Shown here: positions 20,548 to 32,905 of the stretch, piece by piece
How positions within the stretch are numbered: the first letter of the stretch is position 1
Layout: each line of letters opens with the position of its first letter
Sequence record: PP993145.1
Direction: 5' to 3' (one strand)
Origin: Escherichia phage phiP4
DNA: 64,000 nt
Notes under the pieces: model-generated
Databases searched by the model: none
The model's input: only the letters and a program-made list of their open reading frames with translations
What the model was told of the DNA's origin: nothing
Made by a program: the position numbers and the translations under genes

Positions 20548-20634
20548 TGGTGCTGGGCACAGGATTCGAACCTGCAGTGGGATTACTCCTCCTGATTACA
20601 AATCAGGTGCATTCAACCATTCTGCCAACCCAGC
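20548..20634 (-). tRNA. tRNA with long variable arm; anticodon loop TTTGTAA, formally anticodon TGT (Thr)
   Basis: Hand fold: 7-bp acceptor, CCA, 3-bp D-stem, 15-nt variable arm; identity ambiguous. Confidence 0.5.
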
Positions 20635-21037: not shown

Positions 21038-21113
21038 TGGAGCGGCTAGAGGGAATCGAACCCTACTCAGCGAGGCTTGGAAGGCCTGCGACACAACCCG
21101 TGTGCTTAACCGC
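21038..21113 (-). tRNA. tRNA-Gly (anticodon TCC)
   Basis: Hand fold: acceptor GCGGTTA/TAGCCGC, anticodon loop CTTCCAA, CCA. Confidence 0.6.
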
Positions 21114-21121
21114 TTATTATT

Positions 21122-21817: not shown

Positions 21818-22186
21818 AATTGAAAACTCGCAGGGTTAGCGAAACCTTCCTCAATTAGCATGTTCTAGAATACTAATCAAGTTATCTCCTATTGCACGCA
21901 GCTCAAGACGAGTACGAATTTTCAATTGTGGCGGCTCTCAGAAACTCTTCTACTCTAGCTTTAGCAGCTTACTCCCGAACGCATGTCGGGGAAGTCTTAC
22001 CAAGAGCATCAAATAGCACCGTTACACTTTGAGCCATAGATGTATCAAGAAGCAGAAGGATTTGAACCTTCACGAGATAGACCAGTTATCTCAGCCGCTT
22101 TATGAGGTATGTTGCAGGGAGTGGATGTTCCCTATAAACCTTTTAGGCAGCCCCGTCTACCGATTCCGGCATACTTCAAGAATTTT

Positions 22187-23053: not shown

Positions 23054-23130
23054 TGGTGCGTGACAAGGGATTCGAACCCTCAAAACCCGACTTCTAAGGA
23101 CGGTATGTATGCCAATTCCATCAATCACGC
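23054..23130 (-). tRNA. tRNA with Leu-type anticodon TAG but class I (short variable loop) architecture
   Basis: Hand fold: 7-bp acceptor GCGTGAT/GTCACGC, discriminator A, CCA, anticodon loop CTTAGAA, 5-nt variable loop. Confidence 0.5.
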
Positions 23131-25025: not shown

Positions 25026-25052
25026 GCTTATTTCCTCAGTTATTAATGAAAA

Positions 25053-25125
25053 TGGTATCTGTGGCTGAATTCGATGTCAGCAATGATAGCTGGTTGGCTA
25101 CCGGTTTACTTAACTCTACACAGAA
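25053..25125 (-). other. non-canonical tRNA-like element (no U33 in candidate anticodon loop, 8-nt T-loop)
   Basis: 6-bp acceptor with encoded CCA; anticodon loop CAACCAG lacks U33. Confidence 0.3.
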
Positions 25126-25127
25126 TT

Positions 25128-25210
25128 TGGCGGGCCGTGTAGGATTCGAACCTACGTTGTCTTTCGACATGGATTAACAGTCCACCGCCAAACCGCTTGG
25201 CTAACGACCC
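25128..25210 (-). tRNA. tRNA with 13-nt variable arm and anticodon GTT (Asn as read; Tyr-like architecture)
   Basis: Hand fold: acceptor GGGTCGT/ACGGCCC, 3-bp D-stem, anticodon loop CTGTTAA, CCA. Confidence 0.5.
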
Positions 25211-26320: not shown

Positions 26321-26408
26321 TGGTGGGGAAAGATGGAGTCGAACCACCCGAGTCGCAATGACAACTGATTTACAGTCAGCTCTGCTACCACTTACAGAAT
26401 ATTTCCCC
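26321..26408 (-). tRNA. tRNA-Tyr (anticodon GTA)
   Basis: Hand fold: class II, acceptor GGGGAAA/TTTCCCC, anticodon loop CTGTAAA, CCA. Confidence 0.7.
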
Positions 26409-27287: not shown

Positions 27288-27364
27288 TGGTAGGGGTGGT
27301 GGGATTCGAACCCACAAAACCTGAATTTTAAGTCCAGTACCTATGCCAATTCGATTACACCCCC
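27288..27364 (-). tRNA. tRNA with Leu-type anticodon TAA but class I (short variable loop) architecture
   Basis: Hand fold: acceptor GGGGGTG/CACCCCT with G1-U72, discriminator A, CCA, anticodon loop CTTAAAA. Confidence 0.5.
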
Positions 27365-27867: not shown

Positions 27868-27945
27868 TGGTGGCTCCCCGAGGATTCGAACCTACGTACC
27901 TTCCGGTTATGAGCCGGGTGCTCATACCATATGAGCTTGAGAACC
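27868..27945 (-). tRNA. tRNA with anticodon CAT (third CAT tRNA; Met or Ile2), imperfect T-stem
   Basis: Hand fold: acceptor GGTTCTC/GGGAGCC, D-arm GCTC/GAGC, anticodon loop CTCATAA, CCA. Confidence 0.5.
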
Positions 27946-32138: not shown

Positions 32139-32210
32139 TACCGACCGTAGGATTCGAACCTACATCTTCCACCAGTTACGGCTTGATAATACCAATTATA
32201 CTAGGACGGC
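32139..32210 (-). other. tRNA-like element with acceptor and perfect T-arm but no recognisable anticodon arm
   Basis: T-arm GTAGG-TTCGAAT-CCTAC; acceptor 6/7 paired; no CCA. Confidence 0.3.
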
Positions 32211-32470: not shown

Positions 32471-32905
32471 TTAGAAAAATTCACTAGCAATCAAAGCAGT
32501 TGTTTTACCGTCATAACGTCCAGGAAATTCTGCCTTAATAGTTTTCATTAAAAGAGCTTTGGTAATTCCTGGATTTAATTTAACCAGTTCTGCAAAATAC
32601 TCACGAATTTCAGTTTCAGTCAGTTGACTTGGCTGATACTCTTGCAGCATGGAATAAAGCAGTTGCTCATAGTCTACATCAGTAGGAACTTTCATACCAA
32701 CTTTAATAGCGCGCTGTTTTGCATTTTCTAGAGCCTTAATCTGAGCTTTCAGATAGGCTACGAACTCGGTTCGAGTAACAATGTCTTTATCAATACGTTG
32801 CAGATCACCAATCATGGTCTGAAGATTAAGTGCCCGCTCTTTATCACCGTGAGTACGTGCTAGACTAAGCAGTCCACGAAGGGTCATTAGGATATTTTCA
32901 CCCAT
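32471..32905 (-). CDS. hypothetical protein (144 aa)
   Basis: ORF track. Confidence 0.5.
   Translation of the reverse strand: MGENILMTLRGLLSLARTHGDKERALNLQTMIGDLQRIDKDIVTRTEFVAYLKAQIKALENAKQRAIKVGMKVPTDVDYEQLLYSMLQEYQPSQLTETEIREYFAELVKLNPGITKALLMKTIKAEFPGRYDGKTTALIASEFF

What the first reader, a model, noticed from the sequence alone, without database searches (positions are those of the whole stretch)
25128..25210. Tyr-like long-arm tRNA carrying anticodon GUU
The body has a 3-bp D-stem and 13-nt variable arm like tRNA-Tyr, and the loop CTGTTAA differs from the Tyr loop CTGTAAA by one transposition, giving an Asn anticodon. A canonical tRNA-Tyr(GTA) is present separately at 26321..26408.
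Basis: seen in the sequence. Interest (0 to 1): 0.6.

Follow-up and report, generated by a model that had tools for sequence, protein, structure and literature searches.

The report
Phage asparagine tRNA with extra arm
This is a real asparagine tRNA gene of a T5-like phage that carries an extra helical arm normally seen only in leucine, serine and tyrosine tRNAs; the same design recurs in many unrelated large phages but almost never in cellular genomes, and it may help phage tRNAs survive bacterial tRNA-cutting defences.

Summary
Window 25128-25210 (- strand) encodes an 83-nt tRNA with anticodon GUU, discriminator G73, an encoded CCA end and a 13-nt variable region that forms a 3-bp stem closed by a GAAA loop. 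It is not an artefact: the identical sequence occurs in more than 200 T5-like phage genomes.

It belongs to a large family. I collected 111 distinct long-arm tRNA-Asn(GUU) genes from T5-like, T4-like, Marfavirus, Phapecoctavirus, jumbo and uncultured phages. 109 of 111 have G73. The extra-arm helix shows compensatory changes at every pair.

About 16% of phage tRNA-Asn genes matching the anticodon-arm motif are of this type. In 185,579 cellular species the long form turned up in only about 17 loci, mostly inside phage-like tRNA arrays. None of 5,426 E. coli genomes has it.

The arm's geometry is tyrosine-type, but the identity elements (GUU plus G73) are those of AsnRS, not TyrRS (which needs A73). 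The arm is too short and wrongly based for SerRS. By sequence the body is not Tyr-like.

The most likely reading is a functional Asn-decoding phage tRNA. Host tRNA-Asn is a published target of the PARIS nuclease AriB and of P2 OLD. That the arm blocks such nucleases is plausible but untested. I found no published description of this class.

The parts
25128..25210 (-). Whole tRNA-Asn(GUU) gene, 83 nt, with the CCA end encoded
   Evidence: ARAGORN; Rfam tRNA 59 bits; cloverleaf minimum-energy fold; identical in more than 200 phage genomes
25204..25210 (-). Acceptor stem, 5' strand GGGUCGU (G1-C72, G2-C71, G3-C70)
   Evidence: All 7 positions pair with 25132-25138
25187..25201 (-). D-arm GCCA-AGCGGUU-UGGC (four pairable stem positions, 7-nt loop containing GG)
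   Evidence: Relatives in T4-like phages have a 3-bp class II-style D-arm, GCU-GAGCGGUUUA-AGC
25169..25185 (-). Anticodon arm GUGGA-CUGUUAA-UCCAU. The loop is identical to E. coli tRNA-Asn. The stem differs only at pair 28:42 (U-A instead of C-G)
   Evidence: The AriB cleavage context U36-A-A-U-C|C41 is unchanged (PMC12409363). C28U/G42A alters the P2-OLD CNG motif (PMC12445682)
25176..25178 (-). Anticodon GUU (Asn; reads AAC and AAU)
25156..25168 (-). Extra (variable) arm, 13 nt: stem GUC/GAC, GAAA tetraloop, then three unpaired bases AAC
   Evidence: Family-wide covariation: all 4 helix pairs show two-sided changes and 0 of 500 shuffles reach the observed score. The arm folds better than shuffled controls, p = 2e-19
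25139..25155 (-). T-arm GUAGG-UUCGAAU-CCUAC
25132..25138 (-). Acceptor stem, 3' strand ACGGCCC
25131..25131 (-). Discriminator G73, an AsnRS identity element. It is not the A73 that TyrRS and LeuRS need
   Evidence: Sequence; G73 in 109 of 111 family members; identity rules from PMC9976931
25128..25130 (-). Encoded 3' CCA
   Evidence: CCA is encoded in 68 of 111 family members
20548..20634 (-). Companion long-arm tRNA-Thr(UGU), 87 nt, with variable region AGGAGUAAUCCCACU of the same arm geometry. It is a second class I isoacceptor with an added arm in this cluster
   Evidence: It is 85/87 identical to the copy in phage Bas33

Best explanation
The gene encodes a functional asparagine-decoding tRNA of a T5-like phage.

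Shown:
- It is a well-formed cloverleaf with anticodon GUU, a host-identical anticodon loop, G73 and an encoded CCA.
- It is the only tRNA-Asn in a cluster of about 25 tRNAs.
- It belongs to a widespread, almost phage-exclusive family of tRNA-Asn genes that carry a selected extra helix in the variable region.

Inferred from published identity rules:
- It is charged with asparagine by the host AsnRS, which reads the three anticodon bases and G73.
- It is not charged by TyrRS, which needs A73.
- It is not charged by SerRS, which needs a longer, differently based arm.

Inferred biological role: it keeps AAC/AAU decoding going when host tRNA-Asn is attacked. E. coli tRNA-Asn(GUU) is a published substrate of the PARIS nuclease AriB and of P2 OLD. 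Both are Toprim nucleases that cut the anticodon stem at or next to positions 40/41, three to four nucleotides from where the extra arm emerges.

Proposed mechanism for the arm, not shown: it acts as a shape antideterminant that blocks docking of such nucleases. This is tolerated because AsnRS does not read the variable region. In this particular allele the C28U/G42A change also removes part of the P2-OLD CNG motif.
For: Gene and fold.

Not an artefact and conserved: 207 records at least 99% identical, and full-length relatives in Straboviridae, Marfavirus, Phapecoctavirus and a Pseudomonas jumbo phage.

Family of 111 unique sequences:
- G73 in 109 of 111.
- The arm hairpin is far more stable than shuffled controls (p = 2e-19).
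- GNRA loops in about 72 of 111.
- 47 distinct stem sequences.

Formal covariation: all 4 arm pairs show two-sided changes, 95.5% of cells are paired against 32-42% when the partners are slid, and 0 of 500 shuffles reach the observed score.

Phage enrichment:
- In an unbiased viral sample, 19 of 120 loci were long-arm and the length distribution was bimodal.
- No match in 5,426 E. coli genomes or in 72,556 plasmids.
- Cellular copies sit in dense tRNA arrays.

Identity rules: Asn = anticodon plus G73; G73 is an antideterminant for TyrRS and LeuRS; Ser identity rests on the long arm (PMC9976931).

Arm geometry is Tyr-type, not Ser-type.

Host tRNA-Asn is cleaved by AriB between positions 40 and 41, and phage tRNAs rescue cells (PMC12409363). 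P2 OLD also cleaves tRNA-Asn and depends on CNG motifs that include C28 and G42 (PMC12445682).

Indirect in-vivo support:
- Phage Bas33 carries the sister 86-nt long-arm Asn and an 87-nt long-arm Thr(UGU) that is 85/87 identical to the window's. It lacks Lys(UUU).
- Bas33 was rescued from PARIS by T5 tRNA-Lys alone, whereas T7 also needed tRNA-Thr.

Most family members keep a fully host-like anticodon arm, GCGGA-CUGUUAA-UCCGU (39 of 111). The arm is therefore the conserved feature that differs from the host.
Against: - No aminoacylation, expression or nuclease-resistance data exist for this allele.
- The PARIS rescue experiments used T5's own tRNA-Asn. That is a different 78-nt class I allele at the same locus, with a disrupted anticodon stem.
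- The Bas33 inference is weak for Asn, because T4 and T7 were rescued without any phage tRNA-Asn.
- tRNA-Lys(UUU), the prime AriB target, never has a long arm in these loci (0 of 64 in tRNA-rich loci; 0 of 49). Arm addition is therefore not a general answer to AriB.
- The family occurs in phages of very diverse hosts, where PARIS or OLD exposure is unknown.
- This copy also has G1-C72, G2-C71, C11-G24 and G73, which overlap E. coli SerRS determinants. Some serylation cannot be excluded by sequence alone.
- Class II synthetases such as AsnRS approach tRNA with the variable region facing the enzyme (my own background knowledge). Tolerance of the arm is therefore assumed, not shown.
Confidence: 0.6

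Rival explanations
1. The extra arm is selected for something other than nuclease evasion. It could be a handle for a phage or host factor (processing from polycistronic tRNA transcripts, a modification enzyme, or a tRNA-binding cofactor such as the YqeY-like protein encoded nearby). It could also stabilise the tRNA core. On this reading the tRNA is still an ordinary AsnRS substrate.
For: - Strong purifying selection on the helix shows there is a function but does not say which.
- The GAAA/GNRA tetraloop is over-represented (about 72 of 111). Such loops are classic protein or RNA docking sites.
- The family spans phages of very different hosts.
- A weak YqeY-like ORF lies at 32471-32905. T5 annotates its homolog as 'tRNA amidotransferase'.
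- tRNA-Lys(UUU), the main AriB target, never gains an arm.
Against: - No candidate partner was identified.
- T5 has the YqeY-like gene but a short-arm Asn, so the two do not strictly co-occur.
- GAAA loops are also the commonest loop in phage tRNA-Ser and tRNA-Leu arms. They may simply be stable caps.
Confidence: 0.22
2. The tRNA acts mainly as a decoy or competitor. It binds the defence nuclease non-productively and so protects host tRNA-Asn, rather than serving in translation itself.
For: - PMC12409363 explicitly raises competition or inhibition by overexpressed viral tRNAs as a possibility.
- The AriB recognition sequence U36AAUC|C41 is retained.
Against: - All elements needed for translation are conserved across 111 divergent sequences: a 7-bp acceptor stem, G73, the T-loop and an intact GUU loop.
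- It is the only tRNA-Asn in the cluster.
- For P2 OLD, phage tRNA-Thr did not protect host tRNA from depletion.
Confidence: 0.07
3. Ser-accepting tRNA with an Asn anticodon. SerRS recognises the long arm plus G73 and G1-C72/G2-C71, so AAC/AAU codons are partly read as serine.
For: - SerRS ignores the anticodon and relies on the long arm, G73 and the first acceptor pairs (PMC9976931).
- This copy has G1-C72, G2-C71, C11-G24 and G73.
Against: - The arm is 13 nt with 3 bp and 3 unpaired 3' bases. Phage tRNA-Ser arms are 14-26 nt with 4-7 bp and 0-2 unpaired bases. The window's own tRNA-Ser arms are about 20 nt.
- The Ser-like acceptor features are not conserved in the family: U1-A72 in 74 of 111, and C2-G71 in 47 of 111.
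- GUU and G73 are conserved, as expected for AsnRS.
- From memory: E. coli tRNA-Tyr, which has a similar 3-bp arm, needs arm lengthening to become a SerRS substrate (Himeno et al. 1990).
Confidence: 0.04
4. Tyr-derived or Tyr-charged tRNA. On this view a tRNA-Tyr gene suffered an anticodon mutation and now inserts Tyr at Asn codons, or it is a decaying duplicate.
For: - The arm geometry is Tyr-type.
- One substitution converts GUA to GUU.
- Some family members have a D-arm, CCCGAGCGG...GGG, that resembles my recollection of the bacterial tRNA-Tyr D-arm.
Against: - G73 in 109 of 111, against A73 in 63 of 64 tRNA-Tyr. A73 is essential for TyrRS and G73 blocks it.
- Only 57% identity to the window's tRNA-Tyr.
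- Isotype profiles do not favour Tyr.
- Strong conservation and covariation exclude a decaying duplicate.
Confidence: 0.03
5. Plain codon supplementation. The tRNA simply boosts Asn decoding for an AT-rich, Asn-rich phage, and the arm is a neutral historical accident.
For: Asn codons make up about 5.1% of codons in the window's long ORFs, and the window is 39% GC.
Against: - Neutrality is contradicted by compensatory changes at every arm pair and by maintenance across very distant phages.
- The length distribution is bimodal with no intermediates.
- Supplementation does not explain why the design is nearly absent from cells.
Confidence: 0.04

Closest known systems
Canonical bacterial tRNA-Asn(GUU), e.g. 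E. coli asnT/U/V/W
   Same: Identical 7-nt anticodon loop CUGUUAA; discriminator G73; anticodon stem differs at a single pair; same AsnRS identity set.
   Different: - The host tRNA is 76 nt with a 5-nt variable loop (AUGUC), U1-A72 and a 4-bp D-stem with an 8-nt loop.
- The phage tRNA is 83 nt with a 13-nt helical arm and G1-C72.
- Overall identity is only about 61%.
Bacterial class II tRNA-Tyr(GUA)
   Same: The variable-arm geometry matches: about 13 nt, a 3-bp stem and 3 unpaired 3' bases. G1-C72, G34 and U35 are shared, and the loops differ only at position 36.
   Different: The anticodon is GUU, not GUA. The discriminator is G73, not the essential A73. There is no elevated sequence similarity.
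[quoted passage not shown]
   Same: It has the same anticodon as a host tRNA cut by these Toprim nucleases and sits in the same T5-type tRNA cluster. It carries a C28U/G42A-type change in the anticodon stem.
   Different: - The published resistant tRNAs are class I molecules that escape through anticodon-stem substitutions or a shortened stem.
- T5's own tRNA-Asn is a different 78-nt allele.
- Here, and especially in relatives with a fully host-like anticodon arm, the distinguishing feature is an added helix. Neither paper mentions that (the word 'variable' appears 0 times in each).
Bacterial class II tRNA-Ser
   Same: Long arm, often GAAA-capped; G73; G1-C72/G2-C71 in this copy.
   Different: Ser arms are longer (4-7 bp) with 0-2 unpaired bases at the 3' base. 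Ser anticodons differ. The acceptor features are not conserved across the Asn family.
Non-canonical tRNAs from metagenomes (allo-tRNAs with 8/4 or 9/3 acceptor/T-stem arrangements; PMC5389517)
   Same: They are also unusual tRNA architectures found largely by sequence mining, some in phages, and some have a mismatch between body type and anticodon (listed).
   Different: Here the acceptor/T arrangement is the normal 7/5 and the identity elements match the anticodon. Only the class of the variable region is switched.

Membership tests
tRNA (Rfam RF00005) | Cloverleaf that scores above the family gathering threshold | tested here: met
   59 bits against a threshold of 29, E = 7e-11; ARAGORN call; cloverleaf minimum-energy fold
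tRNA-Asn | Anticodon GUU in a 7-nt loop with U33 and A37 | tested here: met
   Loop CUGUUAA, identical to E. coli tRNA-Asn
tRNA-Asn | Discriminator G73 (AsnRS identity element, together with the anticodon) | tested here: met
   G at 25131; 109 of 111 family members; identity rule from PMC9976931
tRNA-Asn | Short (4-5 nt) variable loop, i.e. class I architecture | tested here: not met
   13-nt helical variable arm; the host tRNA has 5 nt
tRNA-Asn | U1-A72, typical of bacterial tRNA-Asn and required by GatCAB in hosts that lack AsnRS | tested here: not met
   This copy has G1-C72. 74 of 111 family members keep U1-A72, including Pseudomonas phage PA1C. It is not required in AsnRS-containing enterobacteria
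tRNA-Asn | Aminoacylation with asparagine | not testable with these tools
   Needs a charging assay
Bacterial class II (long-arm) tRNA | Variable region longer than 10 nt that forms a stem-loop | tested here: met
   13 nt with a 3-bp stem and GAAA loop; covariation across the family
Bacterial class II (long-arm) tRNA | 3-bp D-stem (13:22 not Watson-Crick) | tested here: inconclusive
   A13-U22 is pairable in this copy. 76 of 111 family members have an unpairable 13:22
Bacterial class II (long-arm) tRNA | Isotype is Leu, Ser, Tyr or Sec | tested here: not met
   Anticodon GUU (Asn)
tRNA-Tyr | Anticodon GUA and discriminator A73 | tested here: not met
   GUU and G73 here; A73 in 63 of 64 phage tRNA-Tyr
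tRNA-Tyr | Tyr-type arm: about 3 bp with about 3 unpaired 3' bases | tested here: met
tRNA-Ser | Long arm of 4-7 bp or more with 0-2 unpaired bases at its 3' base | tested here: not met
   3 bp and 3 unpaired bases
Defence-evading (nuclease-resistant) phage tRNA | Same anticodon as a host tRNA cleaved by a defence nuclease | tested here: met
   E. coli tRNA-Asn(GUU) is cleaved by AriB and by P2 OLD (PMC12409363, PMC12445682)
Defence-evading (nuclease-resistant) phage tRNA | Sequence or structure change at or near the cleavage site | tested here: met
   The 28:42 pair is U-A instead of C-G, and an extra helix starts at position 44. The 36-41 hexamer is unchanged
Defence-evading (nuclease-resistant) phage tRNA | Demonstrated resistance to cleavage and rescue of infection | not testable with these tools
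   Only indirect evidence: Bas33, which carries long-arm Thr and Asn, needs only tRNA-Lys for rescue. T5's tested tRNA-Asn is a different allele

The most novel reading that the evidence does not exclude
Switching the class of the variable arm may be a general phage counter-defence. Phage tRNA clusters add a Tyr-type extra arm to class I tRNAs whose host versions are attacked (Asn, and sometimes Thr-UGU). They delete the arm from tRNA-Leu. This happens only where the cognate synthetase ignores the variable region: AsnRS and LeuRS do, SerRS and TyrRS do not. The result is a change in tRNA shape that shape-reading defence nucleases no longer fit, with charging intact. Long-arm tRNA-Asn would then be a fourth, virus-specific class II tRNA family in the bacterial world.
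Probability: 0.3. Interest if true: 0.8.

Novelty: new variant of a known kind. Interest (0 to 1): 0.62.

Why it matters
- **Textbook rule.** In bacteria only Leu, Ser, Tyr and Sec tRNAs are supposed to carry a long variable arm. This is a conserved, covarying, almost phage-exclusive tRNA-Asn that breaks the rule, present in hundreds of sequenced phages and routinely annotated without comment.
- **A new escape route.** Host tRNA-Asn is a known target of PARIS and P2 OLD. Published escape routes are point changes in the anticodon stem. An added helix would be a new, structural route that is easy to test with existing reagents.
- **AsnRS tolerance.** It offers a natural experiment on how much variable-region change AsnRS tolerates, which is useful for designing orthogonal or nuclease-proof tRNAs.
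- **Annotation.** Isotype classifiers and annotation pipelines mis-size or mis-score such genes. One example is the Bas34 'tRNA-Asn', which is really a broken chimera.

Tried and rejected
- **Sequencing artefact.** Rejected: identical in more than 200 independent genomes.
- **Alternative fold or coding region.** The minimum-energy fold is the cloverleaf. Only chance ORFs of 57 aa or less overlap the gene.
- **Recent derivation from the phage's tRNA-Tyr.** Rejected: 57% identity, no better than other tRNAs.
- **Home-made isotype HMMs.** The first run was biased, because the short-Asn reference set shared the search pattern. With the anticodon arm masked the scores were uninformative, 10-13 bits for many isotypes. 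The origin of the body is unresolved.
- **Bas34 as a test of the arm.** Bas34 is PARIS-sensitive despite carrying a 'tRNA-Asn'. I rejected it as a test because its gene is an Asn/fMet-like chimera with three acceptor-stem mismatches, and ARAGORN does not call it.
- **PARIS rescue data as direct evidence.** Rejected: T5's tRNA-Asn is a different, short allele.
- **Linked arm loss in tRNA-Leu and arm gain in Asn.** Not linked (Fisher p = 0.38).
- **Promoter and terminator scan.** At chance level.
- **Literature.** Ten searches, the cap, found no description of a long-arm phage tRNA-Asn. Older subscription papers on T5 tRNA genes are not in the library, so prior mention cannot be excluded.
- **Supplementary files of PMC12409363.** Not held.

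Full report
**What is there.** ARAGORN finds 22 tRNA genes on the minus strand between 19.5 and 31.6 kb. One is tRNA-Asn(gtt) at exactly 25128-25210. Rfam's tRNA model scores it at 59 bits, E = 7e-11. The minimum-energy fold is a clean cloverleaf with an extra hairpin (-30.5 kcal/mol, z = -2.3).

Read 5' to 3' the RNA is GGGUCGU UA GCCA-AGCGGUU-UGGC G GUGGA-CUGUUAA-UCCAU GUC-GAAA-GAC-AAC GUAGG-UUCGAAU-CCUAC ACGGCCC G CCA.

Two details are off. This copy's D-stem can form four Watson-Crick pairs, not three. And the two anticodon loops differ by one substitution at position 36, not by a transposition. No credible ORF overlaps the gene.

**Source and reality of the sequence.** The window is a T5-like phage (Demerecviridae). 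Its flanks are 97-98% identical to Escherichia phages ESCO30 and slur09 and to many Salmonella phages. The identical 83-nt gene is present in 207 phage records at 99% identity or more. That removes the sequencing-artefact explanation.

**It is a family, not a one-off.** Full-length relatives of 83-87 nt, all called tRNA-Asn(gtt), occur in the following:
- Proteus phage PM135 (Novosibvirus)
- Serratia phage X20 and Citrobacter phage CF1 (Straboviridae)
- Klebsiella phages Roth51 and Marfa
- Escherichia phage nepoznato (Phapecoctavirus)
- Pseudomonas jumbo phage PA1C

It found only 30 loci in one genome from each of 185,579 bacterial and archaeal species, none of them enterobacterial.

After parsing anchored on the T-loop I had 111 distinct long-arm tRNA-Asn sequences:
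- Arm length is 11-24 nt, with a mode of 15.
- The discriminator is G73 in 109 of 111.
- The 1:72 pair is U-A in 74 and G-C in 35.
- The arm folds much better than shuffled controls (mean -3.5 against -0.6 kcal/mol, Wilcoxon p = 2e-19).
- The loop is GAAA in 54 and GNRA in about 72.
- There are 47 different stem sequences.

A gap-free alignment of the 38 members with a 15-nt arm shows two-sided compensatory changes at all four arm pairs (23, 22, 9 and 4 sequences). 95.5% of cells are paired, against 32-42% when the partners are slid. None of 500 shuffles reaches the observed score. The extra helix is therefore under selection.

**How phage-specific is it.** A second viral scan that admitted both arm classes gave 101 standard and 19 long-arm loci, or 16%. 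The distribution was strictly bimodal. The long-arm genes always sat in multi-tRNA loci.
- No E. coli genome (5,426 searched) has a relative. The canonical 76-nt host tRNA-Asn is in 5,425 of them.
- No plasmid has a relative.
- The roughly 17 genuine cellular occurrences lie mostly inside dense arrays of 20-36 tRNA genes (Micromonospora, Verrucosispora, Methyloprofundus and other MAGs), sometimes next to a normal tRNA-Asn. That context resembles phage or mobile-element tRNA arrays rather than core tRNA loci. I did not test those regions for prophage genes.

**Which amino acid.** Published identity rules (PMC9976931) say three things:
- E. coli AsnRS reads the three anticodon bases and G73.
- TyrRS needs A73 and U35, and G73 acts against TyrRS and LeuRS.
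- SerRS ignores the anticodon and reads mainly the long arm, helped by G73 and G1-C72/G2-C71.

This tRNA has GUU and G73. I compared arm geometry across the phage tRNAs in the same loci:
- Ser arms are 14-26 nt with 4-7 bp and usually one unpaired 3' base.
- Tyr arms are 12-14 nt with 3 bp and three unpaired bases (A73 in 63 of 64).
- Leu arms have two unpaired bases (A73 in 98 of 98).
- Long-arm Asn has 3-4 bp and three or four unpaired bases (G73 in 109 of 111).

The arm does not look like a SerRS handle. The Ser-like acceptor pairs of this copy are not conserved in the family.

By sequence the body is not Tyr-like:
- It is 57% identical to the window's tRNA-Tyr, within the 51-64% range seen against all other tRNAs in the cluster.
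- Isotype profiles with the anticodon arm masked are uninformative.

I therefore read it as an AsnRS substrate. That is an inference, not a measurement.

**What it is for.** Two recent papers make host tRNA-Asn(GUU) a defence target.
[quoted passage not shown] T5 tRNA-Lys, Thr and Asn together neutralise PARIS. AriB also contacts the D-loop and unidentified distal parts of the tRNA (PMC12409363).
- P2 OLD cuts tRNAs that have paired CNG motifs at 28-30 and 40-42, including tRNA-Asn (PMC12445682).

Neither paper mentions variable arms. In the window's tRNA the AriB site U36-A-A-U-C|C41 is unchanged. The only stem difference from E. coli is C28U/G42A, which touches the OLD motif. In 39 of 111 family members the whole anticodon arm is identical to E. 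coli's. The feature that consistently separates these phage tRNAs from host tRNA-Asn is thus the added helix, which leaves the core three to four nucleotides from the cleavage site. That is the basis for proposing the arm as a shape antideterminant.

**Limits of the experimental link.** T5 itself carries a different allele at the same locus, with an identical downstream flank. It is a 78-nt class I tRNA-Asn with a mismatched anticodon stem. T5 also has a 75-nt tRNA-Thr(UGU). The published rescue experiments did not test the long-arm allele.

I checked two BASEL phages used in that paper.
- **Bas34 (SelmaRatti, MZ501103).** Its annotated 'tRNA-Asn' is really the 5' three-quarters of a long-arm Asn fused in the T-loop to an initiator-like 3' end. 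That leaves three acceptor-stem mismatches, and ARAGORN does not call it. It is probably dead. That may explain why Bas34's own tRNA-Asn did not protect it, and it says nothing about the arm.
- **Bas33 (HildyBeyeler, MZ501074).** It has an intact 86-nt long-arm Asn and an 87-nt long-arm Thr(UGU) that is 85/87 identical to the window's. It lacks Lys(UUU). The paper reports that T5 tRNA-Lys alone rescued Bas33, whereas T7 also needed tRNA-Thr. This is indirect evidence that long-arm tRNAs work and persist under AriB attack. It is stronger for Thr than for Asn.

**Evidence that cuts the other way.** tRNA-Lys(UUU), the main AriB target, never has a long arm in these loci. The family also infects hosts for which PARIS or OLD exposure is unknown. 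A different selected role for the arm therefore remains a serious rival. It could be a handle for processing, for modification, or for a cofactor such as the weakly YqeY-like protein at 32471-32905.

**Wider pattern.** In phage tRNA clusters tRNA-Ser (107 of 107) and tRNA-Tyr (56 of 59) keep their arms. About 44% of tRNA-Leu genes have lost theirs, including both Leu genes in this window. A minority of Thr, Cys, Ile and Trp genes have gained one. Arm loss in Leu is not correlated with arm gain in Asn (p = 0.38). The plasticity matches the synthetases that do not read the arm: LeuRS, and AsnRS. This suggests, but does not prove, that phages are free to change tRNA shape exactly where charging allows it.

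**Verdict.** The Tyr-like interpretation holds only for the geometry of the arm. The gene itself is already annotated as tRNA-Asn in many GenBank records. The existence of a widespread, selected, phage-restricted class II-type tRNA-Asn is not described in any paper I could search (ten searches), though older subscription literature on T5 tRNAs was out of reach. I rate it a new variant of a known kind, of moderately high interest, with a clear set of decisive experiments.

Noticed in passing
window 20548-20634 (-): tRNA-Thr(UGU) is 87 nt, with a 15-nt helical variable arm (AGGAGUAAUCCCACU) of the same geometry as the Asn arm. Host tRNA-Thr(UGU) is the prime target of P2 OLD and a prime target of AriB. 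T5's own copy is a 75-nt class I allele. The long-arm form is in about 100 T5-like phage records and in an Aeromonas jumbo phage.
   Followed up: partly
window 23054-23130 (-) and 27288-27364 (-): Both tRNA-Leu genes (UAG, UAA) are 77 nt and lack the long variable arm that bacterial tRNA-Leu always has. T5's tRNA-Leu(UAG) is 85 nt. Across phage tRNA clusters about 44% of tRNA-Leu genes are short, while Ser and Tyr keep their arms.
   Followed up: partly
L264:9953-10030 (T5, NC_005859) compared with window 25128-25210: T5-like phages carry at least three different tRNA-Asn alleles at the same locus, with the same downstream flank: a 78-nt short allele with a disrupted anticodon stem (T5), the 83-nt long-arm allele (this window) and an 86-nt long-arm allele (Bas33, JNwz02). 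This looks like cassette-like replacement, as expected in an arms race.
   Followed up: partly
L266:16599-16681 (Escherichia phage SelmaRatti = Bas34, MZ501103): The annotated 77-nt tRNA-Asn is a chimera. A long-arm Asn 5' part is fused in the T-loop to an initiator-tRNA-like 3' end, and the Asp, Pro and fMet genes in between are deleted. The acceptor stem has three mismatches and ARAGORN does not call it. It is probably non-functional, which may explain a puzzle noted in PMC12409363.
   Followed up: yes
window 25050-25127 (-): Immediately 3' of tRNA-Asn is a structured RNA-like segment (-17.9 kcal/mol, z = -3.3). It corresponds to T5 'rna3, putative tRNA-like RNA'. It has no Rfam match.
   Followed up: partly
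window 27871-27945 (-), 21041-21114 (-), 32139-32210 (-), 22047-22178 (-): Rfam finds further tRNA-like genes that ARAGORN missed:
- 27871-27945: 40 bits, loop CUCAUAA, like T5 tRNA-Ile(CAU).
- 21041-21114: a UCC loop, like T5 tRNA-Gly.
- 32139-32210: 35.5 bits.
- 22047-22178: a weak 132-nt hit where T5 annotates tRNA-like stable RNAs.
   Followed up: no
window 32471-32905 (-): A 144-aa ORF with a weak YqeY-like Pfam match (E = 4e-4, below the curated cutoff). T5 annotates its homolog (T5.081) as 'tRNA amidotransferase'. From my background knowledge, YqeY/GatB-tail domains bind tRNA-Asn and tRNA-Gln, so this is a possible tRNA cofactor encoded next to the tRNA cluster.
   Followed up: partly
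L133, L134, L138, L157 (Verrucosispora and Micromonospora chromosomes): Arrays of 23-36 tRNA genes within 8 kb contain an 89-90-nt long-arm tRNA-Asn and mostly short tRNA-Leu genes. This is the same non-canonical architecture set as in phage clusters, here in actinomycete chromosomes.
   Followed up: no
L263:75-149 (E. coli O19:H7 730V1 chromosome): An extra 75-nt tRNA-Asn(GUU) with an unusual body (GGGUCAG... acceptor, anticodon stem UCGG/CCGA) and discriminator A73. It is unlike the canonical host tRNA-Asn and may be prophage-borne.
   Followed up: no
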